Program-made: the position numbers and the translations under genes
Shown here: positions 14,792 to 61,493 of the stretch, in pieces
Position numbering within the stretch: the stretch's first letter is position 1
Layout of the letters: each line of letters starts with the position of its first letter
Assembly: GCA_021463465.1 (NCBI GenBank)
Contig: JAJTYH010000003.1
Coordinates: forward strand, 211,549-275,548
DNA: 64,000 nt
Direction: 5' to 3'
From: a bacterium
Lineage (GTDB): Bacteria > Patescibacteriota > Dojkabacteria > SC72
The notes under the pieces: generated by a model
What the model was told of the DNA's origin: nothing
Seen by the model: the letters and a program-made list of their open reading frames with translations, nothing else
The model's database searches: none

Positions 14792-15415
14792 ATGGCAATG
14801 GAAAGATATAGAGAAAAAAGAGAAAATCGAGGCTATGACCGTAAAGTGGTCAGTATTCGTAGAGTCGCAAAAGTCAGAGCTGGTGGAAAGAACATGCGAT
14901 TTAGCGTGATGATTGTTGCAGGTGATCGCAAAGGTAGAGTTGGTGTATCTATGGGTAAAGGACTTGATACTCGATCCGCTTCAGAGAAAGCTGAACGCCG
15001 AGCTTCTACGTCAATGCGAAAGATTGAATTGATTGGTGATACTATTCCTCATGAAATTCTACATAAGACTGGTGCTGCTAAGATCTTGCTCAGACCTGCA
15101 AAACCAGGTACTGGTATTGTAGCTGGAGCTGCAGGAAGAAATGTACTTGAGATGGCAGGTATTGAGAATGTGTACTGCAAGCAGTTAGGTTCAAGTGATA
15201 TCATTGCTAACACCTACTGTGTTTACGAAGCGCTCTTGCTTTTGAGAAAAGGTAGAGTTTTGGAGCGAATGGGTAAGATGAGAGAACGAATTGGAATCAA
15301 AGAGAAAATTGACCAGGAGCGAATGAAGAAAGCTGCAAAGAAGAAAACCGAAAAGAGAGAATTTAAAGTTAGATCCAGAAGAGATGCAACTCGAAAGAAT
15401 ACCAAGAAGAAATAA
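14792..15415 (+). CDS. rpsE: 30S ribosomal protein S5 with about 40-aa Lys/Arg-rich C-terminal tail
   Basis: S5 core (RVAKVRAGGKNMRFSVMIVAGD); tail KKAAKKKTEKREFKVRSRRDATRKNTKKK. Confidence 0.93.
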   Translation: MAMERYREKRENRGYDRKVVSIRRVAKVRAGGKNMRFSVMIVAGDRKGRVGVSMGKGLDTRSASEKAERRASTSMRKIELIGDTIPHEILHKTGAAKILLRPAKPGTGIVAGAAGRNVLEMAGIENVYCKQLGSSDIIANTYCVYEALLLLRKGRVLERMGKMRERIGIKEKIDQERMKKAAKKKTEKREFKVRSRRDATRKNTKKK

Positions 15416-15422
15416 AAGAAAA

Positions 15423-15824
15423 ATGCCAAGTAAAAGACTTGGTAGAGGCGTGGGTTCCGGCGTAGGTGGTCACACCGTAGGTCGTGGACAGAAAGGTCAG
15501 AAATCAAGATCTGGTCACAAATCTACTATCTTTTTTGAAGGTGGGAACAGACCTTTCTTTAGTCGTGTACCGAAATATCCTGGATTTAAGAAAAAAGCAG
15601 AGGCCCATGAAGCTGTTAACTTGGGTACCTTAGATAAAGCTTTTAAAGTAGGCGAAGATGTTACATTGGAGGCTTTAAAGAGTAAAGGGTTGGTGCGTAA
15701 AAGAGTGAACTTGGTAAAGATTTTGAGTAGTGGCGAATTAACTAAGAAGCTTAACATTGTTGGATTGCCTCTTTCGGAAAGCGCAATGGAAAAGCTTACG
15801 AAAGCTGGCGGATTGGTAAAGTAA
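15423..15824 (+). CDS. rplO: 50S ribosomal protein L15
   Basis: MPSKRLGRGVGSGVGGHTVGRG; follows rpsE after a 7-nt gap, so there is no L30 gene. Confidence 0.9.
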   Translation: MPSKRLGRGVGSGVGGHTVGRGQKGQKSRSGHKSTIFFEGGNRPFFSRVPKYPGFKKKAEAHEAVNLGTLDKAFKVGEDVTLEALKSKGLVRKRVNLVKILSSGELTKKLNIVGLPLSESAMEKLTKAGGLVK

Positions 15825-26306: not shown

Positions 26307-26936
26307 TTAGAAATCTTCAGTGGAGTATTCGCTTTCCGAAAAGGAGAGCTCTTTTTGGTCAAAGATTTGAAGAATGTCTTTAACTTCTTGTATGGGCTTT
26401 TTGAGGTAATCCCAAATATCTTGTTGCTTTACCCATTTATAGGTTCCTTCTTGGTTTTCGACCAACTCACCCCATGGGTTAATGAATCTACAAACAAAAA
26501 ATATTTTATCTTCCAATAACTTTTTCTCATTGTTATAAACGCGGTAATGTCGGATGCTGAAAAGTTCTGGCTCACCTACTAAACCAGTTTCCTCTTGAAG
26601 CTCACGTTTAGCTGCTTCTAAAATACTTTCACCTATTTTCACTTTGCCCGTAGGAAAACCTTGGTAGCTATAAAAAGGCGACTTCAAACGAGTATAAAGC
26701 AGGTACTCAGTTTCTCCGTTGTTTTCTCGTTGGCATGTCATTAGAACCGAAACTTTGGCTTGCTGTTCTATTGATGTATCTCCTAAATCCATCCGATTGG
26801 CAAGCTCCTTGCCTGATTCTGTCAGTACATATTTCCCTTCGACCTTAAGGACATAACCAGCTTTAGCTAATTGGTCTAAATGAAAAGTGAATTGGCTTCC
26901 TTCCATATCAACGGGTTTCATCTGTGAAAATTTCAA
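26307..26936 (-). CDS. NUDIX hydrolase with N-terminal winged-helix domain
   Basis: Nudix box GFPTGKVKIGESILEAAKRELQEETGL. Confidence 0.7.
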   Translation of the reverse strand: MKFSQMKPVDMEGSQFTFHLDQLAKAGYVLKVEGKYVLTESGKELANRMDLGDTSIEQQAKVSVLMTCQRENNGETEYLLYTRLKSPFYSYQGFPTGKVKIGESILEAAKRELQEETGLVGEPELFSIRHYRVYNNEKKLLEDKIFFVCRFINPWGELVENQEGTYKWVKQQDIWDYLKKPIQEVKDILQIFDQKELSFSESEYSTEDF

Positions 26937-34347: not shown

Positions 34348-35145
34348 ATGTTTGAACTGATTAAGCAGTACCGTCGAGAATTTGTATATAGTTCTTATCT
34401 TTTTTTGATTTTCGAGCTTTTGGTAACGCCGTCTTTTTCGGTGAATATCTTCTATTTCTCCGTTGTAGCGTTAGTTGGGTATGTATTAATCAATATATGG
34501 CTACTCTCGACCTATCAGCTTCATTCCGCTCGTAGGGTATCTCAATATAGTGATGTTTTGCTGCGCGTAAACTTATGGGAGAGATTATTCTCTTACGTGC
34601 TTTTGCCTCTCTTATTTTATACCGCGGTAGTTACTTTTCTTCTGTTTTCTCCTTCAAGTACACTCAATCAAATTGTGACCGTAATATCGGTATTTCTCTT
34701 TTTCTACTTATTTCTATATGTTAGGACCTCTTATGAGAAGGTATATTCAGTTCACCGGATGACTCGAGTTTCCACAGATTTTGTATCAATTGTGGTCTAC
34801 TTCATGACCCTTTCTGTCTTAAGTCATGTGTTAGTCGATGAAGTGTATTTTGCTCTAATCCTGTTTTTCTTTACGCTTTTCTGTTTTATCTACATCCTCT
34901 ACCATCACAATAAATTTGAGATAAACTCAATTCTGCTTGGGCTAGTTTCCGCAGTTGTAATAACTTTCGTCTATTACAACTCTAATTTCGCAGGGCCCTA
35001 TGCCTTATCTGCAATTCTTTCCGTTCTTTATTATCTCGTTGTCTCGCTTTGGAACGTTAGGTTTTCAGGATCTACGGCGCTTGGTGATTATATCCCCCCC
35101 GTCATGTATTCAGTAATGGCGATTATTCTTATCCTTGGGTTATGA
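34348..35145 (+). CDS. polytopic membrane protein, unknown function
   Basis: About 8 hydrophobic helices. Confidence 0.4.
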   Translation: MFELIKQYRREFVYSSYLFLIFELLVTPSFSVNIFYFSVVALVGYVLINIWLLSTYQLHSARRVSQYSDVLLRVNLWERLFSYVLLPLLFYTAVVTFLLFSPSSTLNQIVTVISVFLFFYLFLYVRTSYEKVYSVHRMTRVSTDFVSIVVYFMTLSVLSHVLVDEVYFALILFFFTLFCFIYILYHHNKFEINSILLGLVSAVVITFVYYNSNFAGPYALSAILSVLYYLVVSLWNVRFSGSTALGDYIPPVMYSVMAIILILGL

Positions 35146-35843
35146 ACGCAAGTTTTGTCATAAAAATAGGTGGATCCCTCCTTTATAATGACGATGTAAC
35201 ACCCAACAAAGCCTTTCTATTGAAGCTGAAAGAGTGGCACGCAAAGTATAAGCCTTTAATTGATAAACTTGTCGTTGTAATAGGTGGAGGTAAACTATCT
35301 CGAGAGGTTGGTGAGAACGTAAAATCACTTATCCCTCCTGAACATATTCATGATGTAGCGATGCAGATTACACAGGTAAATGCTGAGATAGTTAAGGGAT
35401 ACCTGGCTGATGAGAGTATTATCACCCCTCAAACCCTCAAAGAAGCGCTTACAGTTTTAGAGAGTAATCAGCCCGGGATTGTTATTTCTGGAGGGCTTAA
35501 AAAAGGTTGGAGTACGGATATGGATGCTGCAGTATTTGCCGATGTACTCAAACTCAAACAGGTTTACAAGCTTAGTAATGTGGAAGGTGTTTTTGATGGA
35601 GATCCCAAGCAGAATCCAAATGCTAAATTAATTACGAAAATAACATGGAGAGAGTATATGTCGCTCTTTGAGATTAATTCTAAAAGCACGCACCAGCCTA
35701 ATAAGAGTAGTCCAATCAGCGCTGAAACGGCACTATTTTGTGCGCAAAAAGGAATCACATACTTTGTTGCAGGAGGCAAGAACATTTACGATAAAGCTGA
35801 TTTATCAATGGTTTTTGAGTCAGGAACGGTGATTACACCTTAG
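35142..35843 (+). CDS. amino-acid-kinase-fold protein, UMP kinase-like
   Basis: IKIGGS, VVVIGGGK, GVFDGDPKQNPNAKLI resemble PyrH motifs. Confidence 0.5.
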   Translation: MNASFVIKIGGSLLYNDDVTPNKAFLLKLKEWHAKYKPLIDKLVVVIGGGKLSREVGENVKSLIPPEHIHDVAMQITQVNAEIVKGYLADESIITPQTLKEALTVLESNQPGIVISGGLKKGWSTDMDAAVFADVLKLKQVYKLSNVEGVFDGDPKQNPNAKLITKITWREYMSLFEINSKSTHQPNKSSPISAETALFCAQKGITYFVAGGKNIYDKADLSMVFESGTVITP

Positions 35844-41965: not shown

Positions 41966-42825
41966 ATGTTGTATATTCTTCCTCTTCTTGTTGGTGTTTT
42001 TTACGGAATTGGAGGGCTTTTAAATAAAAAAGTCGCAAATTTAGTCGATAACCCCGTATTATCATCTCTTTTATTTAATGTTTTTACATGGCTATTTGCA
42101 TTACCGTTTATTTTTCTGATTTATATACTGGCGGCATACGCATTTCTGATCAATCTAGTGACTGGTTTTATCTTGTAATTAGTGGCATTCTGACACTCTT
42201 TAGCTTCTGGGGACTTTTTAAAAGCATGAGAGAACTGCCAGTGTCAGAGCAGATTTTATTAAGTCGAGCCTCTGTAATCACATATACATTGGGTGGTTTT
42301 ATAATTTTGGGAGAGAATGTTACAAGGAATTCGCTGTTGGGGATAATGTTAATCATATTAGGAATCCTACTTTCATCTATACGTAAAGAGAAGTTAGTTT
42401 TTAATAAATGGGTTATCATTCAACTCCTATCTAGTATTAGTTTTGGATTATCAGTAATGATTGACAAAGTTGTTAGTCCAAACTTTTCTGTTGGTATGTA
42501 CACTTTAGTTAATATTGGAATTACAACAGTTTTTATTCTTGGATGGTCTTACTACACTAAATCAATAAATGAGATACACAAAGTGCCTAAAGAGTATATT
42601 AAATTTATAGCAATTGCAGGGGCATTCAGTGTTACCGCATATTTCTTGCAAATTAAAAGTTATGAATTAGGGGGATTAGTATCTTTAGTCGGAGCTTTAA
42701 GTCAAGTGAAGATAATCGTTGTTGTTCTTGGTGGGTATTTTATTTTCAATGAAAAATCCAACGTTATTACTAAACTTTTGGGAGTAATTACAGTACTGAT
42801 AGGGGTTGTTTTGATAAAAACCTAG
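41966..42825 (+). pseudogene. DMT/EamA-family transporter interrupted by a -1 frameshift in a T4 run (42166-42169)
   Basis: ORF 41966-42178 (TM helices) and ORF 42088-42825 (EamA-like TMs) are consecutive parts of one about 290-aa transporter; adding one T restores ...LVTGFFYLVISGILTLF... Confidence 0.55.
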
Positions 42826-44265: not shown

Positions 44266-44513
44266 TGCTATAATCTCCTTGCAATGATAAGGAAAGAATA
44301 GGGCTAATCCATTGAAGTGAACTCTGTTAAGTGAAAAAGAGAAATGGAACTCATATTCTAAAGACCTTGAGCATCTGGAAGAAATCGCTTGCGAAAGTAG
44401 AACCAGACGTCGTCCTCACGACATAGAGGGAATGAGTAAAATTGAAGGTGGTACCGTGTTTATGACACCCTTCGTAAGTGATAGTAACCCTGTCATTTAC
44501 GAGGGGTGTTTTT
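44266..44513 (+). promoter_or_regulatory. T-box riboswitch leader (Lys) with promoter, antiterminator and terminator, upstream of lysS
   Basis: Extended -10 TGCTATAAT (44266-44274); T-box sequence AATTGAAGGTGGTACCGTG (44442-44458); antiterminator A1 GAAGG/CCTTC, 7-nt bulge TGGTACC, A2 GTG/CAC; overlapping terminator CACCCTTCGTAA/TTACGAGGGGTG + TTTTT (44466-44513). Confidence 0.6.
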
Positions 44514-44532
44514 AATTTTATTATTGACGACA

Positions 44533-46500
44533 ATGCAAGACTCACAAAGTTCACTTATCGGACAACGTTCAGGGAGACTTGAGAAGGTCAAGCGACTCCG
44601 AGAAATGGAGATTGACCCTTATCCCAGCGGATCTAAAAAGCAGGTAGCTAATTCTGAAGTAGTAAATGATTACGAAAAGTATAAAGACCAGAAGGTTGTC
44701 CTTACTGGCCGCCTTATGTCATGGCGTGAGCATGGGCACATCATCTTTGGTCATATTCAGGATGACAGTGGTAGGATTCAGCTTTATCTGAAAGATGAAG
44801 TATATCCGGTTAAAACCAGTAAGAATAAAATCGGTTGGAAGGATTTCGACCTGATTGATGTTGGTGATTTCCTCCAAGTTACTGGGACTGTCACTAAAAC
44901 TAATACAGGAGAAGTCTCTCTTTTGGTTGAAGCTATTGTTATTCTCACCAAAGCAATTAGGCCTTTGCCTGAGAAGTGGCATGGGATTGCTGATAAAGAG
45001 ATGAGGTATCGACGCAGATATTTGGATATGACGATGAATCCGGATGTGCGTGAGCGATTTAAAAGAAGATCTCAATTCTGGACAGCATTTAGGGAATTCA
45101 TGAACAAGAATGGCTTTTGGGAAGTTAATATCCCTGTACTTGAACATGTGACAGGTGGAGCTGATGCTAAACCTTTTGTTACTCACTACGATGCATTGGA
45201 TCAGGATTTCTACTTACGGATTTCGCATGAACTCCCTCTTAAAAGACTCCTAGGTGCGGGCTTTGAAAAAGTTTATGACATTGGAGCAAGATTCCGAAAT
45301 GAAGGCTTTAGTGATGAACATCTACCCGAGCATGTCGCCATGGAATTTTACTGGGCATATGCAGATATGGAAGACGGAATGAAATTCACCAAAGAAATGT
45401 TCCGATTCGTAATGGAAAAAGTTTATGGAAAGTTGAAGTTTAATGTTAAAGGTTTTGAGGTAGACTTGAGTAAGGAATGGGAGGTAATTAGTTATCCGGA
45501 AATCATTAGCGATCGATTCGGAATCGATGTATATTCAGAACCGATTGAAAATCTACGCAAGATTTTGCGTGAAAATGGTTTGGATTTAGGTAGTGGAGTG
45601 AATCGCAATAGGGCGATCGATAATCTTTGGAAGCTTATTCGTAAAGATATTGGAGGCCCAGCATTCATTACAAATGTGCCAAAGTTTCTTTCTCCGCTTG
45701 CTAAGTCAAATACGGAAAATCCTTTGTATACAGATCGATTTTTCTTACTAATTGCTGGAAGCGAGTTGGCTAATGCCTTCTCAGAATTGAACGATCCGGT
45801 CGATCAATTAGAGAGGTTTGTAGAGCAACAAGAAATTAGAGGGGGGGGAGATGAAGAGGCACAAATGATGGATATAGATTTTGTAGAAATGTTGGAGTGG
45901 GGCATGCCACCTGCGTTAGGCTTGGGTATTTCTGAAAGAGTCTTCTGGTACTTTGAAGATGTAACAGCAAGGGAGGGAGTTCCGTTTCCACAACTTAAGA
46001 GTGAAGTTGATACAAACACACAGAAAATATATTCCGACATTATGAAATATATTGATGAAGGAGTATTGGACGATAACCGAATTCAGGATTCAACTCGCAA
46101 GATTGTTGTTGTCATTGATGAAAAACTCAGGGGGTGGCAACTCGCTAACACAGTTGGTCACATCAGTGGGTATTTAGGAAACCATATTGAACATGACCAA
46201 TTCTTTACTCGAAAGCAATTCAAATTAAAAGATGCGTTAATTAATGCTAATTCACAGTATGCGATTGTCGTTTTGACGGCAAAACAGTCACAACTACATA
46301 AATTGCTTGACCAGGTCAGAGAGAAGAGATTAAAACATCTGGCGTATATTCAAGAGATGATTGATTATACGGATGATAATAAGTTGCAGAAAAGTGTAGA
46401 AAGTCAGAATCTGGCTGATGTAGACCTTTTAGGTGTAGGTATGTTTGGAACTAAAATTGAACTAGATGCTTTGACTAAGAAATTTAGCTTGCTTAAGTAG
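44533..46500 (+). CDS. lysS: lysyl-tRNA synthetase (class II) fused to a C-terminal PTH2/DUF2000-like domain
   Basis: OB anticodon-binding domain, class II motifs (FRNEG, GGGDEEAQMMDIDFVEMLEWGMPPALGLGISER); extra about 170 aa resembling PTH2 (KIVVVIDEKL...GH..., LLGVGMFGTKIELDALTKKFSLL). Confidence 0.85.
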   Translation: MQDSQSSLIGQRSGRLEKVKRLREMEIDPYPSGSKKQVANSEVVNDYEKYKDQKVVLTGRLMSWREHGHIIFGHIQDDSGRIQLYLKDEVYPVKTSKNKIGWKDFDLIDVGDFLQVTGTVTKTNTGEVSLLVEAIVILTKAIRPLPEKWHGIADKEMRYRRRYLDMTMNPDVRERFKRRSQFWTAFREFMNKNGFWEVNIPVLEHVTGGADAKPFVTHYDALDQDFYLRISHELPLKRLLGAGFEKVYDIGARFRNEGFSDEHLPEHVAMEFYWAYADMEDGMKFTKEMFRFVMEKVYGKLKFNVKGFEVDLSKEWEVISYPEIISDRFGIDVYSEPIENLRKILRENGLDLGSGVNRNRAIDNLWKLIRKDIGGPAFITNVPKFLSPLAKSNTENPLYTDRFFLLIAGSELANAFSELNDPVDQLERFVEQQEIRGGGDEEAQMMDIDFVEMLEWGMPPALGLGISERVFWYFEDVTAREGVPFPQLKSEVDTNTQKIYSDIMKYIDEGVLDDNRIQDSTRKIVVVIDEKLRGWQLANTVGHISGYLGNHIEHDQFFTRKQFKLKDALINANSQYAIVVLTAKQSQLHKLLDQVREKRLKHLAYIQEMIDYTDDNKLQKSVESQNLADVDLLGVGMFGTKIELDALTKKFSLLK

Positions 46501-55504: not shown

Positions 55505-56569
55505 ATGGATGCTAAAGAATCTAAACTCCCCTACGTACTTGCTTTTTTGATGGTTGGAGCGGTCGCTTTTGGGATCTACTGGATGTTTTTCAAGCCAGCA
55601 CCCCAAGAAGAAAAGAAAGATGACGGTGGTGGTGTAGCTATACTAGATGAAAGTCAGACTGATACACCTTTAACTCCTGAAACCCCGGCAGTTGTGGAGA
55701 AGCCAGACACCGTAGAGGAAGAGACTCCGGTTGAACCTACTGATACTGACTTTTCCACTTTCAGTAACTCCTCACAGAGCGTAGGTAATAGTGGGAATAG
55801 CTCACAATATACTTTGAAATCGGTTGAAGATAGTAAAGAGGATGGCTTCCATTCATTTGTCTTCAATGTACAAGCAAAGACATCCGAAACAATGGAATCC
55901 CCTTATGTAGTAGTAAAATATATGACTTCACAAGGGTCGATTCGTGTTGATTTGAATGGTGTTACTAAGGACGAAAGCGGAATCGGATATCAGAAAAGCC
56001 GCAATATTGATGAACAAGGAGTAATCCGTTTGTACCACAATATCAGTAGTGATCCAAAGGAAGAGCTCTATGACATTGGTGTAGCTAAGCAGACCCTTTT
56101 CAAGATTGTTTCGGTGGAAGACGCAGAAAATACTTGGAAAATTACTTTGAGCGTAAAGTATCCAGGTGGAAATACAACCAGCGAGACTTTTGGCAGTGAT
56201 GCTTTCTCGAAGGATGTGCAAGCCATTGATGGTGGTTTGAAGGTTGATAACAGCAAGGTAGTTTCGTATTCATATTCTACCGCGGGAGGTGTATTGTCAT
56301 TGGTATTTAATGTGTCTGGTTCAACATCAAGACCAGTACCTAGTGCAACAGCTGAGTACAACAGCGAAGGCAAGCTTGTTTTATCATTTACAAGCTTGGT
56401 ATCCGACAATATCCACAACTCATTGGATGGAGATGATTTGGGTGGATTTGGTATCACTACTGAAAAGGTAGGGGATAAGTATGTCTATACTTTCAATGGT
56501 CCAACTAAGGAATTTAAACTTTATGGCTCAAAGAGTCCTAACCAGGTAATTCTTGAAATCAAGTTGTAA
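55505..56569 (+). CDS. membrane-anchored secreted protein, unknown function
   Basis: N-terminal TM, Pro/Glu/Thr-rich linker, beta-rich body. Confidence 0.45.
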   Translation: MDAKESKLPYVLAFLMVGAVAFGIYWMFFKPAPQEEKKDDGGGVAILDESQTDTPLTPETPAVVEKPDTVEEETPVEPTDTDFSTFSNSSQSVGNSGNSSQYTLKSVEDSKEDGFHSFVFNVQAKTSETMESPYVVVKYMTSQGSIRVDLNGVTKDESGIGYQKSRNIDEQGVIRLYHNISSDPKEELYDIGVAKQTLFKIVSVEDAENTWKITLSVKYPGGNTTSETFGSDAFSKDVQAIDGGLKVDNSKVVSYSYSTAGGVLSLVFNVSGSTSRPVPSATAEYNSEGKLVLSFTSLVSDNIHNSLDGDDLGGFGITTEKVGDKYVYTFNGPTKEFKLYGSKSPNQVILEIKL

Positions 56570-57822
56570 TGAGTGGATTAAAAAAACAAGACTTTTGGAA
56601 ACAGATTGGTATCAGTGTAGTGACAATAGGTTTAGGTATAGGTAGCGGCGAGTTCATTCTTTGGCCATACCTAAGTTATCATTGGGGATTTTCAATTCTT
56701 TGGGGAGCATTGCTCGGAATTGCAATGCAGGTTTTCCTTAATATTGAGATTCAAAGATACGCTGTAGTTACAGGAAACTCCTTGCTCAAAGGTGCATATG
56801 GGTTATCAAATAAACTGGGTACCTGGTTTCTTATTTCAACAATATTAGGTTTTGGTTGGCCAGGATTTGTCGCTAGCGCAGGTTTCCTTATGTCTTCTGC
56901 CTTGGCTTTGCCTGAAAGTTTGGGTGGATATGTTTCCCTTGGCCTCCTATTACTAGCAGGGTTAATTTTAGTTGTAGGTAGGGGAATTTATCAACGAATC
57001 GAAAAACTGCTCAAAGTAATCGTGCCAGTTTCATTTATTGTCATTTTTTTGATTTTCATCAGATTTTTTGATTGGACTTTGGTTAAGGAGCTACTTGCTG
57101 GGTTTGTGGGTGTGGGAGTAGGAGGTGTAGATTCTACGGGTTTTAGTCTTTCAATGTTCCTTGGAGCTATTGTGTATTCAGGAAGTGGAGGAAACCTGCT
57201 TCTTTCACAAGCTTTTTATGCTTTAGAGAAAAGAAAGTTCAGCAATGACTTCCAAGAGCACAGGAGGTTTCAAATTTTTGAAAATGTGTTTGTATTCGGA
57301 GGTATTGGACTTCTCACTATTTTAATGCTCTCATATTTGAGTAGAGTATTAACCTTACCTCTGAGCTCCGTATCCAATGACCTTACCTTTTTGGTAGTTG
57401 AAGGATATTTCATTGGTAATGCAATGGGGAAGGTTTTCGAATATCTGTTCCTCTTTACTGGAGTATTTGCCCTCTTTGCTGTACAGCTTGGAGTTTTAGA
57501 TTTATTTGGAAGAGTATGTAGAGAGCTGTTCCACCTCAAGTTTGGTAAAGATAGTTTTCAGATTTATGTAATAGCAGTTTTGATGCAGGTAATGGTGAGT
57601 TCCGTGATTTTGCTAGCGCAAGCTTCTCAGCCTTTATGGCTTTTAGTAATTGGTTCGGTATTTAATGCTTTAGCTATGGGGGTGATTGCTATCGTTACTC
57701 TTGTCTTGAATATGAAGCTTAGAGAAGCTAATAGGCCTTCGAAATTTGTAGTAGTAACCCAGTTTGCCATAGCTCTGTTCTATATCATTTTCTTTGTAAT
57801 TACAGTCAAGGGTGGTATATAA
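56569..57822 (+). CDS. polytopic membrane protein (about 11 TM), unknown function
   Basis: Hydropathy; overlaps the stop of the previous gene. Confidence 0.45.
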   Translation: MSGLKKQDFWKQIGISVVTIGLGIGSGEFILWPYLSYHWGFSILWGALLGIAMQVFLNIEIQRYAVVTGNSLLKGAYGLSNKLGTWFLISTILGFGWPGFVASAGFLMSSALALPESLGGYVSLGLLLLAGLILVVGRGIYQRIEKLLKVIVPVSFIVIFLIFIRFFDWTLVKELLAGFVGVGVGGVDSTGFSLSMFLGAIVYSGSGGNLLLSQAFYALEKRKFSNDFQEHRRFQIFENVFVFGGIGLLTILMLSYLSRVLTLPLSSVSNDLTFLVVEGYFIGNAMGKVFEYLFLFTGVFALFAVQLGVLDLFGRVCRELFHLKFGKDSFQIYVIAVLMQVMVSSVILLAQASQPLWLLVIGSVFNALAMGVIAIVTLVLNMKLREANRPSKFVVVTQFAIALFYIIFFVITVKGGI

Positions 57823-57832
57823 TCCAAAACAT

Positions 57833-57906
57833 CGGGGTGTAGTTCAGATGGCTAGAATGCTTGCATGGGGTGCAAGAGGTCGCACGTTCAAGTCGTGTCA
57901 CCCCGA
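57833..57906 (+). tRNA. tRNA-Pro (anticodon GGG)
   Basis: Acceptor CGGGGTG/CACCCCG, anticodon stem CTTGC/GCAAG with loop ATGGGGT (G37), T-arm GCACG-TTCAAGT-CGTGT. Confidence 0.8.
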
Positions 57907-57926
57907 AAATATTCAATAAAATTCTT

Positions 57927-58412
57927 ATGATTCAAGCAACACTCCTTTTCCTTATAAAAAGAGAAAACGGAGATATTTCTCAAATTTGCCTTGCAATGAA
58001 AAAACGAGGTTTTGGTGTGGGTAAATATAACGGAGTGGGAGGTAAATTTGATAGTGAACTGGATAGTAATATTTTGGATACGGTCAAACGAGAAGCTAAA
58101 GAAGAAATAGGAATTGACATGGATAAATCCTGGCAAGTTGCTGACATGGATTTCTATTTCCCTCACAAGACTAAAATCAACATGAAAGTCAGAGCGTTCT
58201 TGACGGATAGATAGGAAGGCGAACCTATTGAAACTGAAGAGATGAAACCAGAGTGGTTTGACATAAAGAACATACCATATGAAAAAATGTGGGATGGGGA
58301 TGAATATTGGATATCAAGGGTAGTAAAAGGAGAGAAAGTTAGAGGTAAATTCACCTTCAACGACAAAGAAAAAGTGATAAAGAAATTGCTAACTAGAGTG
58401 AAGGTATTTTAG
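57927..58412 (+). pseudogene. MTH1/NUDT1-like NUDIX hydrolase interrupted by in-frame TAG (58212-58214)
   Basis: LAMKKRGFGVGKYNGVGGKF...TVKREAKEEIGI (Nudix box) then ...FLTDR*EGEPIETEEMKPEWFDIKNIPYEKMWDGDEYW continues in the same frame and aligns collinearly with human MTH1 on both sides of the stop. Confidence 0.6.
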
Positions 58413-61400
58413 TTACTGTCCGTTCCAAATCAGCGTATCCTCTGGATTTTGGGTCTTTAACTTCATGAAATATCCTTGCTTAGGATCAAGTCTGAAATCG
58501 AATCCAAAGATTTCACCATCTTTTACTTGGAAAGTCTCATATCGTCCTTTGGTACTATCCCAACTAGTAACACTTTCTACTGTAACACCGTCTACTTTGT
58601 TCATAGAAGTTACGGCGCTTTGAGCTGTAAACTCCTGTTCATAACCGTGTACAGCCACTAAGTTCCAGCCAGATTCAAGAGATACTGCTACCGGATCAAG
58701 CAATGCTGTTCCTGGTACTTGAATCGTACCATTGCGAGTAGTCATAACAGCATATCCTTTGCCGTATGTCAGATTAAAGTCGTTACCCATATCGGTATTT
58801 GATAAGGCATCAAACATAAATGTCTGTGTCCAGTTACTCTCATCAAATTCAATAATACCTTTAACCGTACCTGGTGAAGACTGGTTAGCAAGCTTAATGA
58901 ATTCAGATGCTGAGATAGGTGTGAACTTGTCTTGTGTCGGTAGGAATGGGAAGGAGATCACATTGAAGCCTTTTTGAAGCTTGTACGAGTAAGTGTCAGC
59001 AACTTTGGACACTCTAACCTTGTCTAAATTGATCTCAATTAATTCATCTACATTAGCTTGGAATCCAGGTTGAGCATTCTTATTCTTAAAGAAGTGGTAT
59101 GCATTATCTTTGGTTGCCACTACCGAATATGATTTCACTCCATCAACATCAATGTCGTACAAGCCTTCCTGTGCAAAGTACAAAGTATATTTGTCACCAT
59201 TTTCGTCAGTCTTGATGAACTCGTGACCATCACTCCCATCATGCTCTTGAGCAAAGACTTTGTTGAAAAGCTTATCGAAGAGAGAGAGTGAATCATCGTT
59301 AGTCTCTATAAATCTAGCTTGATTATCACAATACTTATCACGGCTCTCGTCTTTCACTGAGGTTGGAAAGTCATCCGGGTCAGCAAACCATGACCATTGG
59401 GTTTTAAGCTCGTTTAGCCATTGCCTTCCTGCCTCTTCATTACATTGACCAGATCTATATACAGCAGCCCAACTTACCATTGGATCTGAAATGTTGGCAC
59501 AAGGCTGTTTGAAGTTATGATTTCGACAAACAAAGTCATTTAACTGCTCGTTGAAGTAACTTCGACTTACTGTGCTGACATTTTTTCCATTACCCCAGTG
59601 GATTCCAAAATCCTCAGCCTCACCTGCTGCTTGGTAATTACTACAAGCCGACTCATGCATCCAAACAACTAAAGAAATCTTAGGATCTACTCCCGCCATC
59701 TTGGATCGATAGACGACATCATTGAAACATTCGGCGGCGTATGTTTTGCCTCGGTTGTAAATTCCGCGGTAACATAGTTCAGCAAATTTAGCTTTGTCGA
59801 CACCTGGTACAGTTTGGACTGGTGCACTTGTATCGCACGAAATTCCGATTGAACCTCCAGGAGTAGTAGAAGGTGTAACAACTGGGGGAACTGTACTTCC
59901 ATTTACACAAGCATTTTCGTTTGCCCTGCCAGTTATATCTTGCGCGATTGCCAAAATATCTCCTCCTGCAATCTGTCTGCCTCGGAAGAGATCATAACAA
60001 CTCTTGTTATTAACATTACGTTCAAAGTCTTTGTAAGGTTTGTTTTTACCCCCTACTGTGAGGACACAACAGATATTGCCCGACTGAGCTATGTCTTGCG
60101 GGTTTCTGGTTACGTTTGGACCTGTTGGAGGTGTTGGGATTGGTGTGGGCGTTGGCGTTGGTGTAGGTGTAGGGGTAGGGGTAGGGGTAGGAGTAGGAGT
60201 TGGGGTTGGAGAGGGCGTAGGTGTTGGAGTGGGAGTTGGTGTCGGAGTTGGCATTGGCATTGGTTCTGGAACAAGTACTTCAGGGTGAGCTGCATCGTAT
60301 GCAGCGTTGGCGGAATCTACTTCTGCTTGAGTCCACCTTCTCTCACATGCAGGATAAGAATCAATTCCTTTGACTTCTTGTGCTCCGACGTATGTTCCTC
60401 CATAAAGCTGTTGTCCACCAAAAGCCTCGTCAAATATTTCACATCCATCTCCAGGCTTGTCATTTTCAAAGTCGCCAATTAGATCATTTCTTCCGCTTAT
60501 GGTCAAAGCGCAACACAGATTGGGGTTAGTGTCAGGTTCAAGTGAATGATTAGGATGAGCATTAACCGCAGTCAAAGGGAATCCATTGTTCCTATTATTA
60601 CTAAATTGTGCGTCTTCGATATTCCACTCTTCATATACATAATCCTGATCTGGAGTATCTTCAATTCCCCATGATAGAAGTCTACCTGGTGCAGTTTGAA
60701 GGTTTGCTAACTGAGCATAAACTAGTAACTTATCTACCCCAACTAGCATAGAGGTCATCTTCTGGCCACTACTGGATCGAAGGTTGGATTTGTCGATTGC
60801 CCAACCACCTTGAGCATTCGTTACAGAGGAACTAATGAGTGATTGGGGTGTTTGAGTATCTCGCTGTTGTCCTTCAATCTCTCCTAGATATGCTTGGGCG
60901 AAAACGATTGAATCGCTACTTGGTTTTGATTCACCGTTCTTAAGTTTAGTAGTTACTTTGCCGAATGCAGGCTGAGGTACTGAAATATTGTTTTCCGTTT
61001 GGGCAAATGTAGTGAATTTCTGATTAAGCGTTACAGGTACATCAAACCATTGCGTATTAGATTTGATGTCTTTGTCGTTCCACTGTTTAAGGCTACTTAC
61101 TATTTTGAAACTGTAAGTAGTTTCAGCTTTCAAATCGTTGAGTGTTACATGATGAACAAAGTATCTGCCGACCTTTTTAACTTCAACCTCTTCCTTCTTC
61201 ACATCTTGCCCACTTAAGACAGCTTCTTCCTTAGTCTGCGCGACATCTCTATCATCGTAGTAATTCTTTTCATCCATTAACACATAACCCTTGTCTTGCG
61301 TTTTCGTAAACCAGGTAATAGTTGCACTTTCATCGGTCAGGTTAGTTATTCTTAGGTTGTAAGGATTATTGGTAAAGCTTTTGTAATACTGGAAGAGCTC

Positions 61401-61493
61401 TTTCTGATAAAGGAATACTAAAACGGGTATAGCAAGCACAATTAAAAGGTAAACAAAAAAGCGCAAGCTAAGTGTTAATCTGAATTGTGACAT
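58413..61493 (-). CDS. 1026-aa surface/secreted protein with N-terminal TM, Pro-Thr linker and duplicated Cys-containing domains
   Basis: N-terminal TM; PTPTPT... linker; two similar modules (LCCALTISGRNDLIGDFE...C / ICCVLTVGGKNKPYKDFE...C) flank the linker. Confidence 0.6.
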   Translation of the reverse strand: MSQFRLTLSLRFFVYLLIVLAIPVLVFLYQKELFQYYKSFTNNPYNLRITNLTDESATITWFTKTQDKGYVLMDEKNYYDDRDVAQTKEEAVLSGQDVKKEEVEVKKVGRYFVHHVTLNDLKAETTYSFKIVSSLKQWNDKDIKSNTQWFDVPVTLNQKFTTFAQTENNISVPQPAFGKVTTKLKNGESKPSSDSIVFAQAYLGEIEGQQRDTQTPQSLISSSVTNAQGGWAIDKSNLRSSSGQKMTSMLVGVDKLLVYAQLANLQTAPGRLLSWGIEDTPDQDYVYEEWNIEDAQFSNNRNNGFPLTAVNAHPNHSLEPDTNPNLCCALTISGRNDLIGDFENDKPGDGCEIFDEAFGGQQLYGGTYVGAQEVKGIDSYPACERRWTQAEVDSANAAYDAAHPEVLVPEPMPMPTPTPTPTPTPTPSPTPTPTPTPTPTPTPTPTPTPTPIPTPPTGPNVTRNPQDIAQSGNICCVLTVGGKNKPYKDFERNVNNKSCYDLFRGRQIAGGDILAIAQDITGRANENACVNGSTVPPVVTPSTTPGGSIGISCDTSAPVQTVPGVDKAKFAELCYRGIYNRGKTYAAECFNDVVYRSKMAGVDPKISLVVWMHESACSNYQAAGEAEDFGIHWGNGKNVSTVSRSYFNEQLNDFVCRNHNFKQPCANISDPMVSWAAVYRSGQCNEEAGRQWLNELKTQWSWFADPDDFPTSVKDESRDKYCDNQARFIETNDDSLSLFDKLFNKVFAQEHDGSDGHEFIKTDENGDKYTLYFAQEGLYDIDVDGVKSYSVVATKDNAYHFFKNKNAQPGFQANVDELIEINLDKVRVSKVADTYSYKLQKGFNVISFPFLPTQDKFTPISASEFIKLANQSSPGTVKGIIEFDESNWTQTFMFDALSNTDMGNDFNLTYGKGYAVMTTRNGTIQVPGTALLDPVAVSLESGWNLVAVHGYEQEFTAQSAVTSMNKVDGVTVESVTSWDSTKGRYETFQVKDGEIFGFDFRLDPKQGYFMKLKTQNPEDTLIWNGQ
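60128..60265 (-). repeat. tandem hexanucleotide repeat encoding a (Pro-Thr)n linker
   Basis: GGTGTNGGNGTNGG... repeats on the + strand, which is (PT)n on the coding strand. Confidence 0.8.

What the first reader, a model, noticed from the sequence alone, without database searches (positions are those of the whole stretch)
57927..58412. Eukaryote-type MTH1/NUDT1-like NUDIX gene interrupted by an in-frame TAG
The reading frame that starts at ATG 57927 encodes a protein collinear with human MTH1 (8-oxo-dGTPase). LAMKKRGFGVGKYNGVGGKF matches [20 protein letters not shown], the Nudix box REAKEEIGI is present, and MKPEWFDIKNIPYEKMWDGDEYW matches [23 protein letters not shown]. A single TAG at 58212-58214 falls at a position that is a sense codon in homologues (TDR*EGEP against TDSIQGTP). 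The frame stays open for 65 more codons to TAG 58410. TAG is a genuine stop elsewhere here, for example the TPR gene, rplV and trmD. So this is a recent nonsense mutation (pseudogene), a sequencing error or a read-through site, and not a recoded genetic code. The gene also starts 21 nt after tRNA-Pro(GGG).
Basis: seen in the sequence. Interest (0 to 1): 0.55.

Follow-up and report, generated by a model that had tools for sequence, protein, structure and literature searches.

The report
Nonsense-mutated MTH1-like Nudix gene (young pseudogene)
A small nucleotide-cleaning (MTH1-like Nudix) gene in an uncultured Dojkabacteria-type bacterium has a real Trp-to-stop mutation, seen in every sampled copy of this species, so it is most likely an ordinary, recently inactivated accessory gene.

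Summary
Frame 57927-58412 (+) encodes a complete MTH1/NUDT1-like Nudix domain (PDB MTH1 E=3e-28; read-through model pLDDT 96.9, TM 0.90 to MTH1), broken by one TAG at 58212-58214.

In homologues this position is a nearly invariant Trp (W 60, F 16, Y 3, I 1 in 80 other genomes). The lesion is therefore TGG>TAG, a G>A change at 58213.

- **Not an assembly error.** The same TAG occurs in four Logan assemblies from different SRA runs and in the NCBI contig, on two haplotype backgrounds. No intact allele exists among 15 billion proteins.
- **Not a recoded codon.** TAG is a normal stop here: 13 genes use it, and rplV, trmD and pyrH end at their profile ends.
- **Not "eukaryote-type".** More than 2,100 prokaryotic homologues exist, in CPR bacteria, DPANN archaea and others.
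- **Accessory gene.** Sister species keep the flanking synteny and tRNA-Pro(GGG), but carry unrelated small genes in this slot and no Nudix remnant.

The stop removes three strands, helix 2 and the equivalents of MTH1 Trp117 and Asp120. The best reading is a young pseudogene fixed in a near-clonal population (about 0.8). Read-through cannot be fully excluded, because the rest of the genome and the reads were not available.

The parts
57794..57823 (+). Sigma-70-like promoter match (TTGTAA-18-TATAAT), 9 nt upstream of tRNA-Pro. It could drive a tRNA-Pro/Nudix transcript.
   Evidence: 10 of 12 consensus matches. However, the number of sites in the region equals the shuffle expectation, so this is weak evidence.
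57832..57907 (+). tRNA-Pro (anticodon GGG). It is a conserved anchor, orthologous in the sister species.
   Evidence: ARAGORN; Rfam RF00005, 56 bits. One search finds the same tRNA in L085, L086 and L087. One search shows it nearly identical apart from a compensatory T-stem change.
57927..58211 (+). Nudix gene, codons 1-95. This is the only part translated if TAG terminates. It contains strands 1-5, helix 1 and the Nudix box motif REAKEEIGI (residues 55-63).
   Evidence: Gene callers report it as a 95-aa protein (P0001) in NCBI and Logan.
58212..58214 (+). In-frame TAG at family position Trp96. The inferred ancestral codon is TGG, with a G>A change at 58213.
   Evidence: W96 is nearly invariant. 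W 60, F 16, Y 3, I 1 in 80 other genomes, and none has a stop. TAG is present in L001-L004.
58215..58412 (+). Untranslated remnant of the Nudix gene (codons 97-161 plus terminal TAG 58410-58412). It is still fully intact and encodes strand 106-112, helix 125-132 and strands 137-144 and 150-158. It also holds the equivalents of MTH1 Glu100, Trp117 and Asp120 (E105, W122, D125).
   Evidence: all 12 invariant family columns after the stop are retained; the C-terminal/N-terminal identity ratio is 0.87, against 0.88 +/- 0.06 in intact relatives. Searches give the structure and its match to MTH1.
58413..61493 (-). Convergent 1026-aa gene whose stop codon directly abuts the Nudix ORF end. It forms the right-hand conserved border of the variable slot.
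   Evidence: Searches show syntenic 989- and 1005-aa genes in sister species.
56569..57822 (+). Nramp-like 417-aa transporter gene. It forms the left-hand conserved border of the slot and carries a recombination tract that defines two haplotypes, both with the TAG.
   Evidence: 40 of 44 L002 differences lie in 56796-57723. One search gives the NCBI name. Searches cover the sister species.

Best explanation
This is a real, recent nonsense mutation (Trp96 TGG>TAG, G>A at 58213) in a lineage-specific MTH1-like Nudix (putative oxidised-purine dNTP pyrophosphatase) gene of a Candidatus Dojkabacteria (WS6)-related CPR bacterium.

**How it works (inferred).** Ribosomes terminate at the TAG and release a 95-residue fragment. 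The fragment keeps the Nudix box but lacks three beta strands, helix 2, the equivalents of MTH1 Glu100, Trp117 and Asp120, and the position that aligns with Asp119 (Gly124 here). It should therefore be inactive.

**Setting (shown).** The gene sits in a variable slot just downstream of tRNA-Pro(GGG). That slot holds different small genes in sister species, so the gene is dispensable cargo. The mutation is carried by every sampled genome of this near-clonal species.

**Age (inferred).** The mutation is too young for the downstream 65 codons to have decayed.

**Status of the steps.**
- Shown: the stop, its position at a conserved Trp, its presence in independent assemblies, normal TAG usage, and the accessory nature of the locus.
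- Inferred: loss of function, and absence of read-through.
For: - **The stop.** There is a single internal TAG in an otherwise full-length frame.
- **Full-length homology.** MTH1 gives E=3e-28 across the stop. The family HMM gives 225 bits. The AlphaFold model of the read-through product has pLDDT 96.9 and pTM 0.90, with TM 0.90 and rmsd 1.3 A to MTH1 crystal structures.
- **Sense codon in relatives.** The position is W in 60 of 80 other genomes (F 16, Y 3, I 1). None has a stop there, and all relatives run to about 156-165 aa.
- **Independent assemblies.** The TAG is present in four independent Logan assemblies (SRR17318676, SRR35280563, SRR26868045, SRR36303774) and in the NCBI 452,990-bp contig. 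It occurs on both g417 haplotypes.
- **No intact allele.** There is no homologue above 54% identity other than the truncated cluster. None of the seven single-base revertant proteins exists among 15 billion sequences.
- **TAG is a normal terminator.** Thirteen ORFs end in TAG. rplV, trmD, pyrH and the EamA gene end at their profile ends.
- **Accessory locus.** Sister species keep g354-g417-tRNA-Pro-[slot]-large gene-PDDEXK-SdrD_B, but the slot holds unrelated ORFs and no Nudix trace.
- **What is lost.** Four of the nine secondary-structure elements lie after the stop. MTH1 Trp117, Asp119 and Asp120 are needed for substrate recognition, and W117A abolishes activity (PMC11532495).
- **No recoding signal.** Only tRNA-Glu(CTC) and tRNA-Pro(GGG) are found in the window. 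Rfam finds only the tRNA near the gene.
Against: - The 65 codons after the stop are perfectly preserved: all 12 invariant family positions are kept and there is no second lesion. This fits a very young pseudogene, but it also fits continued selection on a read-through product.
- The sampled genomes are almost identical around the gene (0-1 differences in 3.4 kb). Neither relaxed nor purifying selection after the mutation can therefore be measured.
- Only 64 kb of the genome was visible, so a suppressor tRNA(CUA) elsewhere cannot be excluded.
- Raw reads were not available, so a minor TGG allele within populations cannot be excluded.
- The stop codon lies in the stem of a small predicted hairpin, in a segment with fold z = -3.78. 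The signal is not robust to window placement.
Confidence: 0.8

Rival explanations
1. The gene is still functional. The UAG is partly read through, by a near-cognate tRNA or by a suppressor tRNA encoded elsewhere, which yields a low or regulated amount of full-length Nudix enzyme.
For: - The downstream 65 codons are fully intact and keep every invariant family residue.
- The read-through product folds confidently as MTH1.
- The TAG is the only allele seen in all samples.
- There is a local hairpin around the stop with fold z = -3.78.
Against: - The stop is not conserved in any of 80 other genomes with this family. Sister species lack the gene altogether.
- The window has no suppressor tRNA and Rfam finds no recoding element.
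- TAG is an efficient, normal terminator for 13 genes here.
- Intactness is expected anyway, given a near-clonal population with 0-1 SNP per 3.4 kb.
- The hairpin signal disappears with other window placements.
Confidence: 0.1
2. There is population heterogeneity or reversible switching. TAG and TGG alleles coexist, in a mutator on/off state, and the assemblies report only the major allele.
For: - Loss of an 8-oxo-dGTPase is a classical mutator lesion (established knowledge of mutT and MTH1).
- Assemblies collapse minor variants.
Against: - No TGG allele, nor any other sense allele, was found in any assembly or among 15 billion predicted proteins.
- Five assemblies all show TAG.
- A single base substitution has no built-in switching mechanism: there is no repeat tract at the site.
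Confidence: 0.04
3. The gene is split. The 95-aa N-terminal piece and a re-initiated C-terminal piece (for example from ATG 58243, 56 aa) assemble into an active enzyme.
For: - Gene callers report the 56-aa ORF separately.
- An AGGAAGG string overlaps the stop.
Against: - This genome does not use Shine-Dalgarno sequences: only 6 of 71 genes have one. The AGGAAGG string is therefore irrelevant.
- Re-initiation at ATG 58243 would drop residues 96-105, which include invariant G98, E102 and E105.
- No split homologues occur among the 80 loci.
Confidence: 0.03
4. The TAG is a sequencing or assembly error, or TAG is a sense codon in this organism.
For: None beyond the bare presence of an in-frame stop.
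Against: - The identical TAG occurs in independent assemblies of four different SRA runs plus the NCBI contig.
- TAG terminates rplV, trmD, pyrH and the EamA gene at their profile ends.
- The only other TAG lying between two long same-frame ORFs (42823) is an ordinary gene boundary.
Confidence: 0.02

Closest known systems
Vertebrate MTH1 / NUDT1 (oxidised purine nucleoside triphosphate hydrolase; e.g. PDB 3ZR0, 5GHI, 5MZF)
   Same: - About 33-36% identity over the whole domain, E=3e-28.
- The model superposes with TM 0.90 and rmsd 1.3 A.
- Equivalents of Asn33 (N35), Phe72 (F76), Glu100 (E105), Trp117 (W122) and Asp120 (D125) are present.
   Different: - The gene is interrupted by TAG at the position aligned with MTH1 Ile91.
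- The Asp119 equivalent is Gly124.
- The Nudix-box loop is longer than in MTH1: the phmmer alignment places a 2-residue gap in MTH1.
- The host is a bacterium, and the activity is untested.
Prokaryotic MTH1-like Nudix proteins (those with a source name are mostly annotated '8-oxo-dGTP diphosphatase' or MutT), from Patescibacteria, DPANN archaea and others (P0002-P0120; loci L005-L084)
   Same: - Same length class (156-165 aa).
- 44-54% identity, with all invariant residues shared.
- A subset (P0018, P0021, P0111, P0118, L007) shares the extended 'GGKxDxEkgDxn' loop.
   Different: - All of them have a sense codon at position 96 (W, F, Y or I) and are uninterrupted.
- The nearest is only 54% identical, so there is no close orthologue.
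E. coli MutT (TIGR00586 / PRK10776 equivalogs)
   Same: Nudix fold and the conserved 'W-x-G-x-P ... E' segment. Presumed nucleotide-pool sanitising role.
   Different: It scores only 29 and 28 bits against cut-offs of 97.9 and 148, so this gene is not a MutT equivalog.
Young nonsense pseudogenes in reduced or host-associated bacterial genomes
   Same: A single inactivating substitution in a dispensable gene, with the rest of the ORF still intact, fixed in a clonal population.
   Different: Nothing distinctive. The only notable context is the location in a variable slot next to a tRNA gene.

Membership tests
Nudix hydrolase superfamily (PF00293) | Significant match to the NUDIX domain profile. 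| tested here: met
   31.7 bits against a cut-off of 21.1, covering residues 10-130 across the stop.
Nudix hydrolase superfamily (PF00293) | Canonical Nudix box GX5EX7REUXEEXGU. | tested here: inconclusive
   REAKEEIGI fits REUXEEXGU, and G38-x5-E44 is present. However, the E-to-RE spacing is 10 residues rather than 7 (GGKFDSELDSNILDTVKRE). Intact relatives P0018, P0021, P0111 and P0118 show a similarly extended loop, so this is a subfamily trait and not decay.
MTH1/NUDT1-like subfamily | Full-length collinear sequence similarity to MTH1. | tested here: met
   E=3.3e-28, query residues 19-156 against chain residues 17-151. All 26 distinct PDB sequences hit are MTH1/NUDT1.
MTH1/NUDT1-like subfamily | MTH1 fold. 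| tested here: met
   pLDDT 96.9. TM 0.90 and rmsd 1.3 A over 160 columns. This applies to the hypothetical read-through product only.
MTH1/NUDT1-like subfamily | Substrate-pocket residues Asn33, Phe72, Trp117, Asp119 and Asp120 (PMC11532495). | tested here: inconclusive
   N35, F76, W122 and D125 are present and invariant in the family. The Asp119 equivalent is Gly124, a position that also varies in intact relatives. W122 and D125 lie after the stop.
MTH1/NUDT1-like subfamily | 8-oxo-dGTP / 2-OH-dATP pyrophosphatase activity. | not testable with these tools
   This requires an enzyme assay or a mutT-complementation test.
MutT equivalog (TIGR00586 / NF008044) | Score above the curated cut-off. 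| tested here: not met
   29.2 bits against 97.9, and 27.6 bits against 148.
Nonsense pseudogene | An in-frame stop at a position that is sense in all homologues, with homology continuing after it. | tested here: met
Nonsense pseudogene | The lesion is real: reproducible in independent data, with no intact allele. | tested here: met
Nonsense pseudogene | Loss of the full-length product, or relaxed selection. | not testable with these tools
   There are no expression data. The strains are too similar for dN/dS.
Programmed stop-codon read-through or suppression | The stop codon is conserved at the same site in diverged orthologues. | tested here: not met
   0 of 80 other genomes; sister species lack the gene.
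Programmed stop-codon read-through or suppression | A suppressor tRNA(CUA) or a known recoding RNA element. | tested here: inconclusive
   None was found in the 64-kb window, and there is no Rfam element. The rest of the genome was not available.
Reassigned genetic code (TAG = sense) | TAG is not used as a terminator, and conserved genes read through TAG. | tested here: not met
   TAG ends 13 ORFs, and several of them stop at the end of their family profile.

The most novel reading that the evidence does not exclude
The UAG is maintained and partly decoded, through a near-cognate tRNA or an unseen suppressor tRNA. This Dojkabacteria species would then make only trace or conditional amounts of its MTH1-like nucleotide-pool sanitiser, which would act as a translational throttle on mutation rate. 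That would explain why the downstream third is flawless in every sample.
Probability: 0.06. Interest if true: 0.5.

Novelty: new member of a known kind. Interest (0 to 1): 0.15.

Why it matters
The finding matters little beyond correct annotation. The locus should be called a pseudogene, or a truncated 95-aa product, of an MTH1-like Nudix hydrolase. It is not a recoding event, an assembly error or a "eukaryotic" gene.

Two points are mildly useful:
- MTH1-like Nudix proteins are widespread in CPR bacteria and DPANN archaea.
- This lineage has very recently lost one that sat in a variable, tRNA-adjacent accessory slot. If the enzyme sanitised oxidised purine dNTPs, the loss could raise the A:T>C:G mutation rate of the species.

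Tried and rejected
- **JGI metagenome scan.** I scanned with the 31-nt site pattern, using N at 58213, to catch either allele. It gave 0 hits.
- **Own genome in GTDB.** The taxon was inferred instead from SecY homologues: the best named hits are Candidatus Dojkabacteria / WS6, while NCBI labels the genome only 'bacterium'.
- **Decayed Nudix remnant in sister species.** I searched the sister-species slot with tblastn at E<=10 and with the family HMM at --max sensitivity. Neither found anything.
- **Integration scars.** I looked for a direct repeat of the tRNA 3' end around the gene. None was found.
- **Re-initiation from the AGGAAGG string.** Rejected, because the genome shows no Shine-Dalgarno usage.
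- **RNA structure as a read-through stimulator.**
  - The segment 58195-58300 folds with z = -3.78.
  - Neighbouring 106-nt windows give z of -0.5 to -1.6 in a sliding scan of 261 windows.
  - One unrelated window elsewhere reaches -4.3.
  - I therefore treat the signal as incidental.
- **Recurrent stops in the family.** The two apparent cases (L039, L042) are just the natural C-terminal stops.
- **Literature.** A search for the SRA run accessions found no paper. A search for 'Dojkabacteria' plus 'pseudogene' found three general CPR papers, none on this locus.
- **The other TAG between two long same-frame ORFs (42823).** It is an ordinary gene boundary.

Full report
**What is in the sequence**

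The + strand frame from ATG 57927 runs 162 codons to TAG 58410-58412. It contains exactly one internal stop, TAG at 58212-58214, which is codon 96.

tRNA-Pro(GGG) lies at 57832-57907 (Rfam gives 57833-57906). That is 19-20 nt upstream of the ATG, not 21.

The ORF ends directly against the stop codon of a convergent 1026-aa gene at 58413-61493.

**Is the homology real?**

Yes, on four counts, with X placed at the stop:
- The product hits Pfam NUDIX at 31.7 bits against a cut-off of 21.1.
- It hits only MTH1/NUDT1 chains in the PDB. The best E-value is 3.3e-28, and a single alignment covers residues 19-156 across the stop.
- A profile built from 31 homologues scores 225 bits (E=4e-70) on this frame and nothing on the other five.
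- An AlphaFold2 model of the read-through product has pLDDT 96.9 and pTM 0.90. It superposes on MTH1 crystal structures with TM 0.90 and rmsd 1.3 A.

E. coli-type MutT models score far below their cut-offs. "MTH1-like" is therefore accurate.

"Eukaryote-type" is not accurate. The protein database holds more than 2,100 prokaryotic homologues of 156-165 aa. Those that carry a source name are mostly called 8-oxo-dGTP diphosphatase or MutT. A GTDB scan finds the family in Patescibacteria, DPANN archaea, Bdellovibrionota, Clostridia and others.

**What the stop replaces**

- In an alignment of 31 relatives, position 96 is a nearly invariant Trp.
- Across 80 genomes of other species it is W 60, F 16, Y 3 and I 1, and never a stop. 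All relatives continue to full length.
- The lesion is therefore TGG>TAG, a G>A transition at 58213.

**Is it an artefact?**

No.
- The truncated 95-aa product (P0001) is on record from NCBI and from Logan assemblies.
- Four Logan contigs from different SRA runs were retrieved (SRR17318676, SRR35280563, SRR26868045, SRR36303774). All carry TAG at the same site.
- They represent two haplotypes, which differ by a dense tract of substitutions confined to the upstream Nramp-like gene. In L002, 40 of the 44 differences lie in 56796-57723, and L004 shares the part of the tract that it covers. Both haplotypes have the TAG.
- No intact allele exists. The best non-truncated homologue is only 54% identical.
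- None of the seven proteins obtainable by a single-base change of TAG to a sense codon (W, Q, Y, K, E, L, S) is among about 15 billion sequences.
- A JGI metagenome scan with N at 58213 found nothing.

**Is TAG a stop in this organism?**

Yes.
- All three stop codons are used. Among long non-overlapping ORFs the counts are TAA 58, TAG 13 and TGA 7.
- The TAG-terminated rplV, trmD, pyrH and an EamA transporter gene end within a few residues of the ends of their family profiles.
- A systematic scan for single stops between two long same-frame ORFs finds only one other TAG, at 42823. It is an ordinary gene boundary.
- The window holds only tRNA-Glu(CTC) and tRNA-Pro(GGG). Rfam finds no recoding element near the gene.

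**Organism and evolutionary setting**

- NCBI labels the genome only "bacterium". The best named SecY homologues are Candidatus Dojkabacteria / WS6.
- Unnamed sister lineages reach 82% SecY identity.
- S5 is followed directly by L15, with no L30 between them, as in CPR bacteria.

Using the upstream Nramp-like gene as a handle, I retrieved the syntenic locus from sister species at 58-60% identity.
- L085, L086 and L087 keep the order g354, g417, tRNA-Pro(GGG), [slot], large convergent gene, PDDEXK nuclease, SdrD_B protein.
- The tRNA is nearly identical, apart from a compensatory T-stem change.
- Sequence similarity ends right after the tRNA. The slot holds an unrelated 71-aa ORF in L085 and a 117-aa membrane ORF in L086/L087.
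- L088 lacks the tRNA-Pro gene and has a hexapeptide-repeat gene directly after the transporter gene.
- Neither tblastn (E<=10) nor the family HMM at maximum sensitivity detects any Nudix remnant there.

The Nudix gene is thus lineage-specific cargo in a variable, tRNA-adjacent slot. I found no att-like repeat.

**Consequence of the stop**

- Four of the nine secondary-structure elements of the model lie after residue 96: strand 106-112, helix 125-132, and strands 137-144 and 150-158.
- The stop aligns with MTH1 Ile91.
- The lost part contains the equivalents of MTH1 Glu100 (E105), Trp117 (W122) and Asp120 (D125).
- Trp117, Asp119 and Asp120 recognise the oxidised base, and W117A abolishes activity (PMC11532495).
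- The 95-aa fragment is therefore expected to be inactive. This is an inference.

**Age of the mutation**

- The downstream 65 codons retain all 12 invariant family residues.
- They are no more diverged than in intact relatives. The C-terminal/N-terminal identity ratio is 0.87, against 0.88 +/- 0.06.
- Outside the recombination tract the sampled genomes differ at 0-1 positions in 3.4 kb.
- This intactness is what a young mutation in a near-clonal population would show. It does not by itself argue for selection.

**Alternatives**

*Read-through or suppression.* This cannot be excluded, because only 64 kb of the genome and no reads or expression data were available. Nothing positive supports it:
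- The stop is not conserved in any relative.
- There is no suppressor tRNA in view.
- TAG terminates normally elsewhere in the window.

*RNA structure.* The stop lies in the stem of a 6-bp hairpin (58210-58229), inside a segment with fold z = -3.78. In a sliding scan of 261 windows the neighbouring windows are unremarkable, and one unrelated window reaches -4.3. I treat the hairpin as incidental.

*Two-piece enzyme by re-initiation.* This is unlikely for three reasons:
- The genome does not use Shine-Dalgarno sequences; only 6 of 71 genes have one.
- The next ATG (58243) would drop invariant residues G98, E102 and E105.
- No split homologues exist.

**Verdict**

This is an ordinary, real and recent nonsense pseudogene of an accessory MTH1-like Nudix gene (confidence about 0.8). 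Interest is low. The residual novel reading, a maintained and partly decoded UAG, has a probability of about 0.06.

Noticed in passing
window 57908-58412; L085 1950-2425; L086 2856-3217; L088 1684-2202: The slot just after tRNA-Pro(GGG), between two conserved syntenic blocks, holds a different small gene in each related species. This genome has the Nudix gene, L085 a 71-aa ORF and L086/L087 a 117-aa membrane ORF. L088 has a hexapeptide-repeat gene and no tRNA. No att-like repeat was found.
   Followed up: partly
window 56796-57723 (Nramp-like gene 56569-57822): Of the 44 differences between the window and strain contig L002, 40 are packed into about 930 bp of this one gene and are mostly synonymous. 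The next 3.4 kb has 1 difference. This looks like a recombination import that defines two haplotypes. L004 shares the part of the tract that it covers.
   Followed up: partly
whole window (71 gene starts): There is essentially no Shine-Dalgarno usage: 6 of 71 genes have an SD-like motif at -16 to -6. Upstream regions are simply A/T-rich.
   Followed up: partly
window 44506-46500 (+): The lysyl-tRNA synthetase matches the LysS profile to residue 499. It is followed by a C-terminal extension of about 165 aa that matches DUF2000 (PF09391, E=1e-22). This is a LysRS-DUF2000 fusion.
   Followed up: partly
window 14792-15824 (+): Ribosomal protein S5 is followed directly, with a slight overlap, by L15. 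There is no L30 gene between them, which is the pattern reported for CPR bacteria.
   Followed up: partly
window 26307-26936 (-): A second, unrelated Nudix protein of 209 aa has an N-terminal winged-helix domain (PF00293 E=1.7e-13; HTH_45 E=4e-5). It is not a close paralogue of the MTH1-like gene (BLASTP E=0.001 over the Nudix box only).
   Followed up: partly
window 35142-35843 (+): The UMP kinase scores better on the archaeal pyrH model (TIGR02076, 104.6 bits) than on the bacterial one (TIGR02075, 41.6 bits). Both scores are below their cut-offs.
   Followed up: no
window 58195-58300 (+), hairpin 58210-58229: The in-frame TAG sits in the stem of a 6-bp hairpin. The 106-nt segment folds with z = -3.78, and 0 of 200 shuffles fold as well. 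Adjacent windows are unremarkable. The ancestral G at 58213 would still pair, as G-U.
   Followed up: partly
window residues 38-56 of the Nudix ORF (58038-58094): The Nudix-box loop is extended (GGKFDSELDSNILDTVKRE). The conserved acidic residue lies 9 residues before the Arg-Glu rather than 8. Similarly extended loops occur in intact relatives P0018, P0021, P0111, P0118 and in locus L007, so this is a subfamily variant of the motif.
   Followed up: partly
window 58413-61493 (-); L085 2426-5395; L086 3214-6231: A large protein of about 1000 aa is conserved in sister species. Its only domain hit is N-terminal, to the purple-acid-phosphatase-N / Fn3-like family. The L086 orthologue has long Pro-Thr repeats, so it is probably a surface protein.
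   Followed up: no
loci L024, L030-L032, L034, L036, L039, L042, L049, L057, L063, L064, L070, L072: MTH1-like Nudix genes at 36-48% identity occur in many DPANN and other archaeal MAGs as well as in CPR bacteria. This suggests the family is shared among small-genome, episymbiotic lineages.
   Followed up: no
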